Origin: Pocillopora damicornis
Lineage: Eukaryota
Length of the DNA stretch: 64,000 bases
Assembly (NCBI RefSeq): GCF_003704095.1
Contig: NW_020843987.1
Coordinates: 124,001 to 188,000 of the forward strand
Reading direction: 5' to 3'
Shown: positions 10,765 to 16,233 of the stretch, piece after piece
Numbering within the stretch: the stretch's first letter is position 1
Layout: every line of letters begins with the position of its first letter
Translations under genes and position numbers: made by a program
The notes under the pieces: model-generated
The model's input: only the letters and a program-made list of their open reading frames with translations
Database searches by the model: none
What the model was told of the DNA's origin: nothing

Positions 10765-13700
10765 ATGGCTGCCCTGTTCTTTGTTCTCGCCGTTTTAGCT
10801 GTTTCTGTGCCTCTAAAGTCATCTGGTAAGCTGAAAATAACTTTAATTGAACGTTAAATCTAAAATGTAGGGTAATTATAAAGTTAAAAGTCTCCATCGG
10901 GAAGTTAATGTGAGAAATTTTCAGCACTTTTTTTCGCCACACGAGGCAGGACTCTATTGGATAATCTACTTTGACCTTTTCTAGAGTGTTTTTTGCTTTT
11001 CAAACTTCCTAATTTTTATCAGACGCTGTACAATTATTGATTGACACATTTTGCCGTCTACATCGTTTTGTAACATTCAGCGACGTGTTACTGTATTTGA
11101 TGAAGGCGAGCACAACCTCCAGAATAAAATTGAAGTAACAGTATGGATGAAATGCCTTGAGTGTGTCACGAAATATCTTCTTAACGTTGATTTCACTTCG
11201 TGGTTTTGAATTAGGTGATGCTTGCGTAGGAGCTAGGCCAACCACAGACATTTATACCACAAGGAATATTTTGCTGTCATCAGAGAGTGTGTTCATTGTT
11301 GAATTTTCCCTCAAATGTGACAATGGTGCAAAGGTATGGTATATTTGCGGATGGGTGAAGTAGTCCTAGTTTGATGGTCTTATTCTTATGCTGTCTGAAA
11401 AATTTCCATTTCCATGATATGAGTACCAGAGAGAAAAATACAATTCAAGAAACTACTGGATAGTTCTGCTCAGATACAACTGTAGCTGAGAGAGAGTTAA
11501 CTTTAAATATAGAACGATATTTTGTAGAATTTAAGAAGTTGCCCAAGACTCCTTTGTTTTTGTTAAACCATTTTCTTTGATTAGTGAAGAAGGGAAAGGC
11601 CCTTGCACAACCCCATGCTAAATTTGTATACACTTAGAATTACAAGGAAAAAGGAATGATCACTGACTAATGAAGCTCTTGACTGTTAAACAAATTCTCC
11701 TTGTCAGCACTTCACATGTTCCTCAAATGTATGAAGAACAGAATATGTTTACTGATGTAAGGGTGTAGAGGGTTTATTTGCATAACTGGAACCAATTGCT
11801 CATTTGTGCACCATGAAGAACAGTAAATTATGATTGGTTATTGTGATTGCCATAGATGCATGCTAACTTTTTCAACATGGAACATAAAAGCATACCAATA
11901 AAAAATGGTGCAATGCTTACAAGATAAGGAAACTCCTAATATATTTCTTAAGACATTTATGATATATGTAAATCAACCACTTTATTGTTCATTGTTAAAC
12001 TTTTCAAATTGCTGAAAAGTCTTGGGAATCATTGCATGACTTCAGTGGCTCACTTGAGATTTTTTGGTAAGCAAACTGAACAGTTCTGCTCTTTAAATGC
12101 AGGTAAAGGAATTTATTCTTTCATATGTTTTATTATGTAAACAGAATGTGAATCTGTATGCTGAAGTTAATGGAAAAGTTATGCCAGTTACAAGATCGAC
12201 TGATGATGCAAAATACCAGGTTTGTAATTATTTGTAGCTGATTTTAGAAAGATCAATGTGAACTTGGCAGGGAATAATTCCTATGTACCTCACACAGGCT
12301 GATTGGCTAGGTCTAAGTAAACAGCAAATGCATTTACTTTTCAACTCAGAACTGTGCTTCAAGAGTTTAATTTCTCATAATTTTCAATTTACTGGCATTG
12401 AAAGGAATAAACTACCATGTAGTTTTTCAGTTGTGGTATATTCTAAAATGATAATGAACCCCAGTGTCAGTGAAAGTGATACATATTGTATCTACCTTGC
12501 TGCCTTGTGGCTTAGTAAAAATCAACTACTTTTCACCTCCACATCAGTAAATAATTGTAAAATGTTCTTCCCCATGGATGGAAAACTAGTCCATCACAAG
12601 TTACCCTGGGCATTATCAGGCTTCTCTAAAAGTTACAGAGTTAGCTGCCCCCATTCAAACTCCTGGGTGAAGGGAGGGATCATCAGAGTGAAGTGTCTTA
12701 TCCAAGAACGCAGGACAAGATTTAGCCAGGTTGCAAAGCCAGATCTCTTGACATTAAGTCCAGAGTGCTAGCCTTTTGACCAGTGGGTCTTCCTAATTGT
12801 TGGCTCAGTGGCATTTTTGACCCTTAATACACTAACATTGGTATGCATATTCTCCTTACTGTTCTCTATACATTTCCCTGGGTGCTGACAAGGAGAATTA
12901 GTTAAACAATGAACAGCTTCTATAGTCAGTGATCATGTCTTTTATCCTCAACCTTAATATTTGATTCAGGGGAGATATTGTAAGGAGAAATTATATGTTA
13001 GTCACTCTTAGGTATTATAGGGTTAAATGAAATCCAAGGAGCTAACATGGAGTTCTTCCATCTCATGACACCCTGTTTCAATTCCCAGCTGTTAAAACCT
13101 TGAGGATTGAATCTTCTCCTGGTTCTCATCTTTTCTTTCTTTATAGCAACTAATATGCCAAATTCCATGGTAACCGAGAATCAGTGAAGCTAGAAACCAT
13201 GCCTTGAGAATTTCTTTGTTCGATAATTGTCCCAAAGACATGAATGATGAATGTGAATCAGCTACCCTGAGTGTACAAAGTACATATGATTACACTATTA
13301 CATGTTCTGATATGTCTTTGGATAACTCAATGTTGAACTTTTTTTTTAGTACCTGAATAACGCACCAACTTGCTTTTTGTTATTTTTATTATTAGGTCAG
13401 CTGGGCAGAGGAGCACAAGGAGGCTAAAGCTGGTGTCTACAAATTGAGTTTCTATGATGATGAGGGATATGCAGCCTATAGAAAGGTACACTGGTCAAAT
13501 TAAGGATGGTTTAATATTGGGAAACAATTTGGTCATTTTAATACATCTTTTTGGTCCCCACCTCCCTCCCCCCCATACTGCACCCAACTAGTTTGTTATA
13601 AACCTTTTTATTTATTGCTGTTAGTATGGATGATTTTGAACCAGTTTGAGTCATTTCAAGTAATTTTGGATAACAATGTCTAAAACCCACTGTTCTGATT

Positions 13701-15192
13701 GTCAGCTATCCCCTCTAGCTGCTACACATCCTTGTAAATTAGTTATAAGAAATTGTCCTAATATCAAGGTAACAACTTCTCCATGATAAGTTGAGTATTC
13801 TCACTACATGTTTTCTGGATACTGTTTGGATATTCTAAGGAGAAGTTATGTGTTAATCACTCCTAGTGTGGCAAAGAACTCTTGATCATATCACAGAAAA
13901 AAAAATTGTCTCTGCAACCTGTTTGCTGTTAAAATATCTGCTAAGAAAATTTTATTCCTTTCAAGTCTTGTCCTTGGTGGAGACGAGGGAGGGAGTGTAT
14001 CAAAACTCCTTTGTTCTACCTCTGTGTTTTTTCTTGTCCTTCCTGTTAACTATGTTAAATTTATAAGGAGAAGGATTCACACTCAACTTGCAGATGTTGA
14101 GCATTTCAAAGGGCTGTCCAGTAAATGATGACTTGTATAATTATCTGTCAATCCAATGAGAAAGATGATTACAAAATATACCGGAAGTCTGATATATGTG
14201 ACTTGCTCTTTGATAATCAGAATAATCAGAAACAAATGATAGGATTTTAATATATTTAGGATGGTACAAACATGTTCTCATCTACCCTAATTTGCTTTTA
14301 GGCACAGAGAAGTGGTACACCAAGTGAGGCCAAGGCCTTGTTCTCCATTGATGTCAATCATCGGGTGAGGAATGCTTTCACATCCATTGTTTTTATTCCA
14401 TTTTATGACATTTCTCTCTTTTAGTTACTCCTAAGAAACAATAGATTTTCTAGATGAGTGTCTAACTTCCCAAAGACCTTTGTGATGAACACAATCGCTA
14501 CCATGATGCAAAATCATGATTAGACTCTTTATCCTCTAAGAAGTTCTGAGATGTCTTTGGGAAGGTGTACACTGGGTTTTTTGGGCTTTTGTATCATGAA
14601 AATTTTGCCAAACTTTCCAGTTGAATACCTACAATCTTCTTCATCCATTTTTACCTCATGGTATGATGGTGGTCATTCCATGAGGATTAAGTAGCAACCT
14701 AAAATTCACTTACTCACTTGCACTATTCTGATCTGTTAGACCATAAATTTATGATTTGAACATGGATGAAATTCATTATGGCCTGCCTCCCTAACTAGGT
14801 TTGGTTCTCTCCCCAAAGTCATGCCATTGTCTTCTGTATATCTATCTGATGGGGAGGGACAGGTTCAGAAATGTTATTTGATCTACATACTTGTCATATT
14901 TACTTGTTTTCCCAACCCATCCAACCAATGGTTTTTGATGACCCTCATGTAGAGTGTAACCTTACTTTTGGCAGAAAGTAACTCAAGTTATGGAGGCCTG
15001 GCACCCCAGCAGGTTGATTCTAACTTTCTCTTACTGATATGTTTCCTAAAGGTTAATTCAAAGTTGATTTGTTGTTTTTAGGGAGCTGGCCGTGAAGGAC
15101 TCTATGTACAAACAGAGTTTATTGCCGTTGTAGCAGCTTTGTTGATTTGGTGGAGTGCCAACAATGTTAAAAGTAAACTGCAGGAATCCTAG
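10765..15192 (+). CDS. SSR4: Translocon-associated protein subunit delta (TRAP-delta), 6 exons, 172 aa
   Basis: Exons 10765-10825, 11215-11333, 12145-12219, 13396-13485, 14302-14364 and 15082-15192 are GT-AG and total 519 nt. Signal peptide, then GDAC...YTT...ESVFIVEFSLKC...NLYAEVNGKVMPVTR...YQVSW...FYDDEGY...RKAQR...LFSIDVNHRG...VQTEFIAVV and a C-terminal TM, matching TRAP-delta. AATAAA at 15259-15264. Confidence 0.95.
12565..12793 (-). mobile_element. Degenerate tRNA-derived SINE
   Basis: CTCCTGGGTG..GG..GG...AGAGTGAAGTGTCTT..CCAAGAAC followed by a decayed antisense tRNA-like head; resembles a common anthozoan SINE as remembered. Confidence 0.5.
12817..13026 (+). mobile_element. TTAA-flanked MITE, family A
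   Basis: TTGACCCTT...AGGGTTAA with the family A body. Confidence 0.75.
13232..13321 (+). ncRNA. Box C/D snoRNA candidate A (SSR4 intron 3)
   Basis: Perfect 10-bp terminal stem CCAAAGACAT/ATGTCTTTGG. Box C ATGATGA 13244-13250, D' CTGA 13267-13270, internal hairpin GTGTAC-AAA-GTACAT, C' ATGATTA 13286-13292, D CTGA 13307-13310. Sense to the host; box D is 85 nt upstream of the 3' splice site. Confidence 0.8.
14120..14197 (+). ncRNA. Box C/D snoRNA, SNORD110-like (SSR4 intron 4)
   Basis: Box C ATGATGA 14125-14131. The guide ATCTGTCAATCC (14143-14154) is the exact complement of the conserved 18S segment GGAUUGACAGAU. D' ATGA 14156-14159, C' ATGATTA 14165-14171, D CTGA 14189-14192. TGATGACTTG...ATCTGTCAATCC resembles vertebrate SNORD110 as remembered. 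Confidence 0.8.
14466..14564 (+). ncRNA. Box C/D snoRNA candidate B (SSR4 intron 5), paralog of candidate A
   Basis: Perfect 12-bp terminal stem CTTCCCAAAGAC/GTCTTTGGGAAG. Box C GTGATGA 14482-14488, guide AATCGCTAC 14493-14501, D' ATGA 14503-14506, C' ATGATTA 14516-14522, D CTGA 14546-14549. Confidence 0.8.
14930..15042 (+). ncRNA. Weak box C/D snoRNA candidate (SSR4 intron 5) with SNORD26-like guide
   Basis: TGATGA at 14936-14941 and CTGA at 15034-15037, preceded by TAACTTTCTCTT-A, which resembles the remembered SNORD26 guide. The terminal stem is poor and the CTGAT could be the branch point. Confidence 0.3.
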
Positions 15193-16233
15193 GCTGGCTC
15201 AATTGGTTTAAAATTTTTAACTTTATCCACAACTGTAAAACACTTTTTCTTTGTATTTAATAAAATTGGATACAAAAACAAGAACTTTGAGTAATGATGC
15301 TGAATTTTAAATAAATTGCGGTTAAGCAAGTCTTGATTGTGAATTTCAAGGCAACCACTTACTGATTTACAGAGTTTGCAGATACTGTGCAGTCATAAAT
15401 ATAATTACAAATAGAAAGCGTAATAATAAGTGATCTGATTCTTCACAAAATATATTAAGAATAAAAATCCATTTTACTGTTATAGGGTTAAATAACTGTT
15501 TCTCTTACATACTGAAATGTTATTAGCATTATTATCATTATTATTATTATTTCTACTATTGTTATTATAATAATTTAATAATAAACAATTATTGGCCTTA
15601 GTAGAGGTGAATATTTACACAGCCGTGTAGCAGCAAGGTAAATATCCACTACTTTTGCCAACACTGAGGTGAATAATTGTTTTAGTATATACCAAACAAA
15701 TTTAAAAATAATAAGGTGCAATCAACTGAGTTGAAAATGTAAATTAGCCACGCAAATCATTTCTGAACCAGCCAGCCAATGAGCACGCACAAAAAGGACA
15801 CCTGAGTGGTATATGCTTATTAAAAATATCTACAATCATTAAAGTAGGGGCTCATTACCTGTGTCTTGGCTTTGATTGGTGCCGTCAGACGCTAAAACAG
15901 GAGCCAAGAGAAACAGCTATGGCAGTTGCCTCTCCCTGATCTACTGAGATGAGAGTTTCATCCCATAGCTACATGAACACTAGTCCAATAGATGTTCCTG
16001 AAACCACCTTACAAAAAATACTTTATGGGTGGTACTCAACATAATTAATTATGGTAAGAAAACTTGTAGGACGTTGTACCTGCAGATAAAATATTTTCGC
16101 GATAAATATCAAAACATTCTTTAAAAATTTGAATTTTTTTTTCGGTTAACAAAGTCAGATTTAGCATCGGCATGGATTCGCTTCGTGTTCCAGAAGCTTC
16201 CTGAAGTCTTCGGAAGTCATCTTTCCTCGCTTG

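What the first reader, a model, noticed from the sequence alone, without database searches (positions are those of the whole stretch)
13255..14506. Two paralogous snoRNAs whose D' guides differ by a single inserted base may target different 28S sites
Seen: candidates A and B share the CCAAAGAC/GTCTTTGG stem, the C' box and GTT-CTGA, but their guides read GAATCAGCTAC-C (A) and CAATC-GCTAC-C (B). From remembered rRNA sequence, B pairs over 9 bp with 28S GUAGCGAUU, and the +5 rule lands on the G equivalent to yeast Gm867 (snR50). A pairs over 11 bp (one G-U) with the conserved GUAGCUGGUUC about 70 nt downstream. Inference: duplication into another intron plus a 1-nt indel retargeted the guide.
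Basis: partly seen in the sequence, partly recalled or inferred. Interest (0 to 1): 0.7.

Follow-up and report, generated by a model that had tools for sequence, protein, structure and literature searches.

The report
Coral snoRNA twin with shifted target
Two introns of a housekeeping gene, likely from a stony coral, hold two guide RNAs that likely arose by duplication; their targeting sequences differ by one extra base, which is predicted to send them to two look-alike spots 70 bases apart in ribosomal RNA, a small and testable example of how a new RNA modification site may arise.

Summary
A (13244-13310, intron 3) and B (14482-14549, intron 5) are box C/D snoRNA genes in a spliced SSR4/TRAP-delta gene. 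A lacks that guide and has no credible Rfam match. Thirteen related SSR4 loci all keep B's D' guide, and all 5 loci that reach an A slot keep an intact A. One host group turns A's G-U pair into G-C. An A profile ranks all 9 related B sequences above 62 other snoRNAs, also with the guide removed, so paralogy is likely. The best D' targets are 28S G867 (B, 9 bp) and G937 (A, 11 bp) in yeast numbering. Methylation is unmeasured, this genome has no intact rDNA, snRNA and tRNA targets were not tested, and the direction of the indel is unresolved. Retargeting of duplicated snoRNAs by tiny changes is known; this is a clean new variant. Also found: a decayed A copy in intron 2 and a SNORD110-like gene in intron 4.

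The parts
10765..15193 (+). Host gene SSR4 / TRAP-delta, six coding exons (10765-10825, 11215-11333, 12145-12219, 13396-13485, 14302-14364, 15082-15193), 172 aa
   Evidence: Open frame with GT..AG introns; Pfam PF05404 on 2 of 2 exons tested; joints over introns 2-5 in RNA contigs, intron 1 by loose ends
13232..13321 (+). snoRNA A with terminal stem (boxes 13244-13310), intron 3, D box 85 nt before exon 4; predicted single-guide RNA
   Evidence: 7 intact homologues in 5 related loci; only intact copy found in G000 by pattern
13255..13270 (+). A D' guide and D' box; predicted target 28S G937 (yeast numbering); extra A at 13260 relative to B
   Evidence: 11 bp, one G-U, best match in all 8 surrogate 28S pieces from other eukaryotes; CAGCTAC in 8 of 8 intact copies, 2 with U-to-C giving G-C
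14468..14562 (+). snoRNA B with terminal stem (boxes 14482-14549), intron 5; SNORD61 family, predicted double guide
   Evidence: Rfam RF00270 46.4 bits, gathering 43; homologues in intron 5 position of 13 related loci
14493..14506 (+). B D' guide and D' box (ATGA); predicted target 28S G867 (yeast numbering)
   Evidence: 9 bp Watson-Crick, also on the own-genome 28S pseudogene L004; 13 of 14 copies AATCGCTAC, 1 AATTGCTAC
14532..14549 (+). B D guide and D box; predicted target 18S U equivalent to human Um1442 / Arabidopsis Um1384
14125..14192 (+). snoRNA C, intron 4, SNORD110-like; D' guide 14143-14154 predicted for 18S U equivalent to human Um1288; not a paralog of A or B
   Evidence: Rfam SNORD110 E 0.086, below cut-off; 12 bp with 18S; homologues in 10 related loci including distant L093
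11947..12027 (+). Decayed copy of A in intron 2 (stem and D box left; C box, guide and D' broken)
   Evidence: A profile hit E 0.0011; alignment; intact A copies sit in intron 2 of L058, L066, L068, L080

Best explanation
A and B are intronic box C/D snoRNA genes of SSR4 that likely arose by duplication of a SNORD61 gene within the host gene; B keeps the 18S guide and has a second guide predicted to methylate 28S G867, while A lost the 18S guide and, likely through one inserted A in the shared D' guide, is predicted to methylate 28S G937 instead (yeast numbering). Mechanism: after splicing, the intron is trimmed to the stem-closed RNA, which binds 15.5K, NOP56, NOP58 and fibrillarin, and the base paired to the fifth nucleotide before the D or D' box is ribose-methylated (established knowledge, not tested here). 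The two 28S sites share the same first five bases, so one added base turned a 9-10 bp match at the first site into an 11-bp match with one G-U at the second. One host group later changed that G-U to G-C. A was duplicated again (introns 2 and 3); some hosts keep both copies, others lost one or the other. Shown: sequences, boxes, host splicing, conservation, complementarity. Inferred: paralogy, targets, order of events.
For: B is over the Rfam SNORD61 cut-off. 14 of 71 metagenome loci found with B's D guide lie in SSR4; 13 are close relatives and all 13 keep the D' guide, which was not in the search pattern. All 5 loci that reach an A slot hold an intact A; the window lost the intron-2 copy, L058 and L066 have a decayed intron-3 copy, L068 and L080 keep both. 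Guide variants need a G in the target: A reads U or C at one place, B reads C or U at one place. The U-to-C change keeps A on site 937 (-16.1 and -17.2 kcal/mol) and drops it at site 867 (-7.8). Paralogy: mean A-B alignment score 75.4 against 41.1 +/- 5.9 for 54 control snoRNAs, 0 of 54 as high; without the D' guide 62.9 against 38.4 +/- 5.9, 0 of 54; same-host control C 49.5 and 45.4; an A profile ranks 9 of 9 B first among 71 sequences either way. A and B form separate clades (98/99) across host groups. Distant locus L093 has a full SNORD61 with a related stem upstream of exon 4, apparently in A's intron.
Against: No methylation data, and no evidence of mature snoRNA expression: only assembled contigs were available, of poly(A)/oligo-dT runs or runs with no library record. 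G000 has no intact rDNA match; site 937 was not seen in this genome and rests on the Rfam consensus and other eukaryotes, whose loci were fetched with a pattern that demanded both sites. The non-guide paralogy signal lies mostly in the terminal stem: between D' and D, A is no closer to B (14.9) than to C (16.1), and 4 of 54 controls score as high. B's D' duplex is short (9 bp) with a non-canonical D' box. A in its U form also pairs with site 867 through a bulge (-12.6 against -12.0 to -14.1 for B). No outgroup shows the ancestral D' guide: L093 has a different one, and none of 49 other SNORD61-type RNAs has either guide. snRNA, tRNA and an intact 3' half of 28S were not scanned.
Confidence: 0.62

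Rival explanations
1. Same paralogy and same two targets, opposite direction: the ancestral SNORD61 copy had the G937 guide, and B gained the G867 guide by losing one base.
For: If the ancestor had the U form, one deletion gives B's guide, so the step count equals that of the insertion path. The tree does not polarise the indel, and L093 has neither guide.
Against: Three of four host types carry U in A, which gives a G-U at site 937 but is the exact match for site 867; this looks like a leftover of a B-type guide. G867 is a known methylated site in yeast (PMC5699541 passage), though convergence is possible.
Confidence: 0.17
2. The ancestral guide served both look-alike sites and the copies split the job; A in its U form may still act on both sites.
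For: A (U form) pairs with site 867 over 10 bp with one bulge, -12.6 kcal/mol; B pairs with site 937 over 9 bp with a bulge, about -8.3. One guide with two targets is described for SNORD19/SNORD69 (PMC6984369 section 10).
Against: Both L080 copies have lost the pairing with site 867 (-7.8) yet are intact. The bulge lies next to the target pair, which usually blocks methylation (recalled).
Confidence: 0.1
3. The D' elements pair with 28S or another RNA but do not direct methylation, for example as folding aids, or their real target is an snRNA or tRNA.
For: Neither site is in the Arabidopsis or Drosophila lists that I saw. In Drosophila 31 of 75 sites predicted from complementarity were not methylated (PMC11014333 passage). 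snRNAs and tRNAs were not scanned.
Against: Both duplexes end exactly one base before a conserved D' box in every intact copy, and the variants fit a G in the rRNA sites.
Confidence: 0.07
4. A and B are unrelated; the guides look alike because the two rRNA sites do, and the stem was shared by chance or by local conversion.
For: No paralogy signal between D' and D; the two targets are themselves similar.
Against: The 5' flank alone links A to B above 54 of 54 controls and above C from the same hosts. A perfect guide has about 0.5 one-insertion neighbours with another 11-bp target among about 4600 positions (137 such mutants for 252 sites), so unrelated guides would rarely be one base apart (my inference, about 1 in 10,000).
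Confidence: 0.04

Closest known systems
SNORD61 / U61 (Rfam RF00270, clan CL00067; human 18S Um1442, Arabidopsis Um1384)
   Same: B has the boxes, length and 18S D guide and passes the gathering score; so do the copies in L066, L068, L080.
   Different: B has a conserved extra D' guide for 28S that none of 49 other SNORD61-type RNAs had; its host is SSR4 (human host RBMX, recalled). A lacks the 18S guide.
Target switch by point mutation in duplicated snoRNAs: SNORD19/SNORD69, SNORA16 to pug18S-137, SNORA58 to pug18S-324 (PMC6984369, section 10 read)
   Same: Copy in the same host gene, minimal change in the guide, new or lost target, the two guide domains evolving independently.
   Different: Here the change is a one-base indel inside a box C/D guide that moves it between two look-alike sites of one rRNA domain, with a G-U state and a G-C state both seen; the new sites there were mapped, these are only predicted.
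Intragenic (cis) duplication of snoRNAs in chicken (PMC2653536, passages) and Arabidopsis isoforms predicting new sites (Barneche 2001, title only, in the reference list of PMC8351944)
   Same: Paralogs in neighbouring introns; substitutions and indels proposed to give new guide functions.
   Different: Non-bilaterian animal; reciprocal loss of duplicate copies between hosts is visible.
Yeast snR50 (25S Gm867)
   Same: B's D' guide points at the equivalent G: 9 of 9 literature positions tested (805, 807, 817, 867, 876, 908, 917, 936 and the recalled 898) fall on the expected base in L022 and L034.
   Different: No Rfam match to a yeast guide was listed for B beyond SNORD61 (3 same-clan overlaps left out); the site is absent from the Arabidopsis and Drosophila lists seen, so homology with snR50 is not shown.
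Arabidopsis snoR12 (25S Am945)
   Same: By a constant offset of 9, it modifies the A just before A's predicted target.
   Different: Different nucleotide, other box position, no sign of homology tested.

Membership tests
Box C/D methylation-guide snoRNA (A and B) | C, D', C', D boxes in order, with terminal stem | tested here: met
   boxes kept in all intact homologues
Box C/D methylation-guide snoRNA (A and B) | Guide of about 9-20 bp to rRNA ending at a D or D' box | tested here: met
   A 11 bp, B 9 bp (28S) and 13 bp (18S) on surrogate rRNA; own-genome support only for site 867
Box C/D methylation-guide snoRNA (A and B) | Inside an intron of a transcribed, spliced host gene | tested here: met
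   Joints over introns 2-5 in RNA contigs
Box C/D methylation-guide snoRNA (A and B) | Mature small RNA accumulates and binds fibrillarin | not testable with these tools
   Only assembled contigs were offered, none from a small-RNA library on record
Box C/D methylation-guide snoRNA (A and B) | Target nucleotide is 2'-O-methylated | not testable with these tools
   No modification map found for any anthozoan in listings
SNORD61 (B) | Rfam RF00270 score at or above 43 bits | tested here: met
   46.4 bits
SNORD61 (B) | D guide to the 18S Um1442-equivalent site | tested here: met
   spacing to C's target 148-150 nt against 149 in Arabidopsis
SNORD61 (A) | D guide to 18S and Rfam score | tested here: not met
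   No SNORD61 hit; D region differs in 6 forms among 8 copies and has no consistent target. A is a likely descendant, not a member.
snR50 family (B) | Sequence homology beyond the guide | tested here: inconclusive
   No such Rfam hit listed at E up to 10; no direct alignment to snR50 was made
SNORD110 (C) | Rfam RF00610 score at or above 64 bits | tested here: not met
   25.8 bits; works like it by its 12-bp D' guide

The most novel reading that the evidence does not exclude
One inserted base in a duplicated SNORD61 made, in a single step, a working guide for a conserved 28S guanosine (yeast G937) not known to be methylated in model organisms. Stony corals have kept it under selection since before the sampled host groups split, and one group has perfected the pairing. 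The pair records the whole birth of a new rRNA modification.
Probability: 0.5. Interest if true: 0.55.

Novelty: new variant of a known kind. Interest (0 to 1): 0.42.

Why it matters
How new rRNA methylation sites arise is usually inferred from diverged families. Here the likely parent guide, the one-base variant, the G-U state, the G-C state and decayed copies can all be read in one host gene, and each step can be tested in yeast, where G867 is a native site and G937 is not known to be modified. It also predicts two 28S methylations for an animal group with no modification map in the listings that I saw. It does not change how snoRNAs are understood to work: retargeting of paralogs by tiny changes is in print, and my simulation shows the route is not rare (70 of 252 sites have some one-insertion path to another 11-bp target).

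Tried and rejected
Own-genome rDNA: no 5.8S match, no two-site pattern, no match for a second 28S motif; only degenerate 28S and 18S fragments. The 5 hits for a site-937 pattern had no rRNA match and were dropped. The single IMG/VR hit is not rRNA. A search for more surrogate 28S gave no answer and was not repeated, so the 3' half of 28S rests on one pseudogene. A target for A's D region: best 9 bp, inconsistent between rRNA pieces and not conserved; rejected. A target for C's D region: same result. A guide-like string in L071 lacks a C box in place; rejected. DNA searches of G000 with A and B found only themselves; the first look is strict, since A did not find B. Contig depth over intron 3 cannot show snoRNA expression; the four variants listed in 13030-13420 lie outside A, too few to count as evidence. 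The Drosophila supplement was searched twice for a cross-species site table without a usable hit, so Dictyostelium and Xenopus were not checked. Earlier-findings look-ups returned nothing. Rows dropped before counts: the decayed L066 copy and the truncated L058 copy from the A set, duplicates of identical sequence, and L093 from the B and C sets (scored separately).
Full report
Observation. Both candidates are present as described. A spans boxes 13244-13310 and B 14482-14549. Each has C, D', C' and D boxes and a 10-12 bp terminal stem. In the whole window only 3 places pass a simple C + D + stem filter, and A and B are the two strongest. Each folds better than 200 of 200 shuffles.

Host gene. 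The surrounding exons join into a 172-residue protein with GT..AG introns; 2 of 2 exons tested match Pfam TRAP-delta. Contigs of public RNA runs join across introns 2-5, and loose ends support intron 1. A lies in intron 3, B in intron 5. One holder run is labelled coral metagenome, so I take the organism as a stony coral; this is an inference. The runs were poly(A)/oligo-dT or had no library record, all held as contigs, so they say nothing on mature snoRNA.

B passes the Rfam cut-off for SNORD61 (46.4 bits, cut-off 43). Its D guide pairs with 18S over 13 bp in surrogate rRNA, at the site that PMC8583080 Table 1 lists as AtU61, Um1384, human Um1442 (passages). A has no such guide and no credible Rfam match. 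Intron 4 holds a third snoRNA, C, SNORD110-like. Intron 2 holds a decayed copy of A (E 0.0011; alignment).

Relatives. A scan of metagenome contigs with a C box and B's D guide gave 71 loci; 14 lie in SSR4. By exon identity they fall into two groups close to the window (72-81 of 90 bases in exon 4) and one distant locus, L093 (64 of 90). All 13 close loci keep B with the D' guide: with the window, 13 of 14 read AATCGCTAC and 1 reads AATTGCTAC. This guide was not part of the pattern; the invariance of the D guide is by construction. Five loci reach a place where A is expected, and all five hold an intact A. L068 and L080 have two copies (introns 2 and 3); L058 and L066 keep the intron-2 copy and have a decayed intron-3 copy; the window shows the reverse; L047 covers intron 3 only. 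The other eight contigs end before an A slot. In 8 of 8 intact copies CAGCTAC and the D' box are kept, while the D region takes 6 forms. Within introns 4 and 5, similarity between hosts is confined to the snoRNAs; in intron 3 it also includes a few stretches that look like dispersed repeats. This points to selection on A's D' guide.

Targets. G000 lacks intact rDNA, so I used 17 rRNA pieces: eukaryotic contaminants in prokaryote assemblies and three own-genome pseudogenes. A's best match is 11 bp with one G-U; the next best is 8 bp. B's D' guide gives 9 bp, also on the own pseudogene L004, and 11 bp on one variant piece; the next best is 8 bp. The two target G's are 70 nt apart. Numbering the first as 867 puts positions 805, 807, 817, 876, 908, 917 and 936 on the bases expected from the published yeast, plant and fly sites (tables), so the second is yeast G937. 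The 28S pieces were fetched with a pattern holding both sites, so they are not independent; the Rfam consensus shows both sites independently. Site 937 was not seen in this genome. The guide variants fit: U or C in A and C or U in B both pair with a G in the target. The C form of A binds site 937 at -16.1 to -17.2 kcal/mol and site 867 at -7.8; the U form gives -17.1 and -12.6 (bulged); B forms give -12.0 to -14.1 at 867 and -7.1 to -8.4 at 937. snRNAs, tRNAs and an intact 3' half of 28S were not scanned.

Paralogy. Six distinct A, nine B and six C sequences were compared with 54 control snoRNAs from the other loci. Mean A-B score was 75.4 against 41.1 +/- 5.9; without the D' guide 62.9 against 38.4 +/- 5.9; for the 5' flank alone 12.7 against 3.8 +/- 2.8; 0 of 54 controls reached A-B in each. 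C, from the same hosts, scored 49.5, 45.4 and 2.9. An A profile put 9 of 9 B first among 71 sequences (16.6-32.9 bits against at most 3.6; without the guide 15.9-33.6 against at most 10.9). Against this: between D' and D there is no signal (A-B 14.9, A-C 16.1, 4 of 54 controls as high), so the non-guide evidence is mainly the stem. A and B form two clades (98/99) that each span the host groups, so the duplication is older than those groups. The two L080 copies group together (99/97), which suggests conversion or a repeat duplication. L093 has a full SNORD61 about 1 kb before exon 4 with no exon 3 between, and a related stem; this fits an intron-3 SNORD61 as A's parent but is one locus of unknown taxon.

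Direction. The SNORD61 body is clearly the older part, since it occurs in 49 distinct non-coral sequences. For the D' guide the data do not decide. The U in three of four host types is the exact match for site 867 and only a wobble at 937, which favours insertion. No outgroup carries either guide. A simulation shows that 137 of 10,080 one-base insertions into perfect 10-bp guides (1.4%) reach 11 bp elsewhere, and 70 of 252 sites have such a path. So the route is ordinary in probability, while two unrelated guides being one base apart would be rare.

Comparison with what is known. PMC6984369 (passages; section 10 read whole) shows target switches by point mutation in duplicated snoRNAs and warns that function must be tested. 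PMC2653536 (passages) names cis-duplication and indels as sources of new guides. PMC5824354 (passages) describes target switches in fungi. Barneche 2001 I saw only as a title. Gm867 is a partial yeast site (PMC5699541, one passage; link to snR50 from the listing and recall). The Arabidopsis list has nothing at 876 or 946 but has Am945 next door (PMC8583080 table passages). The Drosophila list has neither site (PMC11014333 table passage; its supplement was searched without result). Absence in human and of 937 in yeast is recalled. Searches for 'Gm937' with rRNA and SNORD61 with SSR4 found 0 papers; listings for Nematostella or coral snoRNAs showed no modification map. The library lacks most subscription papers and protist maps were not checked, so novelty of the site is provisional.

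Verdict. It is a new variant of a known kind: a tidy, testable example rather than a surprise. Interest 0.42.

Noticed in passing
window 14125-14192 (+): Third intronic snoRNA, SNORD110-like, D' guide to 18S (human Um1288 equivalent); its place in SSR4 intron 4 is kept even in distant L093.
   Followed up: yes
window 11947-12027 (+): Decayed A copy; reciprocal to the decayed intron-3 copy in L058 and L066.
   Followed up: yes
L107:498-576 (+), L106:34-102 (+): In L107 one RNA carries both the SNORD110-type D' guide and the SNORD61 D guide; L106 has a partial form. Many non-coral loci have the two guides on neighbouring RNAs, as SSR4 introns 4 and 5 do: a possibly old linkage.
   Followed up: no
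L093:3363-3442 (-): SNORD61 upstream of SSR4 exon 4 with a different D' region that pairs weakly (9-10 bp) with 28S pieces, one of them a conserved 3' region; possible other second guide.
   Followed up: partly
L051: Three SNORD61 copies within 2.5 kb, one with a diverged 5' half: another case of copy divergence.
   Followed up: no
window 15866-15976 (+): Weak SNORA2/SNORA34 match (E 7.9) downstream of SSR4; a similar stretch follows the gene in L082. Could be an H/ACA RNA or a conserved element of the next gene.
   Followed up: no
window 7176-7248 and 35604-35676 (+): Two tRNA matches (36.1 and 51.5 bits); the first looks like a tRNA-derived repeat.
   Followed up: no
window 11650-11720, 12830-13015, 13700-13850: Short dispersed repeats in the SSR4 introns draw hundreds of contigs from elsewhere in the transcriptome.
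   Followed up: no
L003, L004, L116 (G000:C3123, C2498, C1013): The own genome gave only degenerate rDNA fragments; no intact rDNA unit was found.
   Followed up: partly
L011-L039: 29 contigs in bacterial and archaeal genome assemblies match a eukaryotic 28S pattern; the 5 checked with Rfam are eukaryotic rDNA, i.e. contamination.
   Followed up: partly
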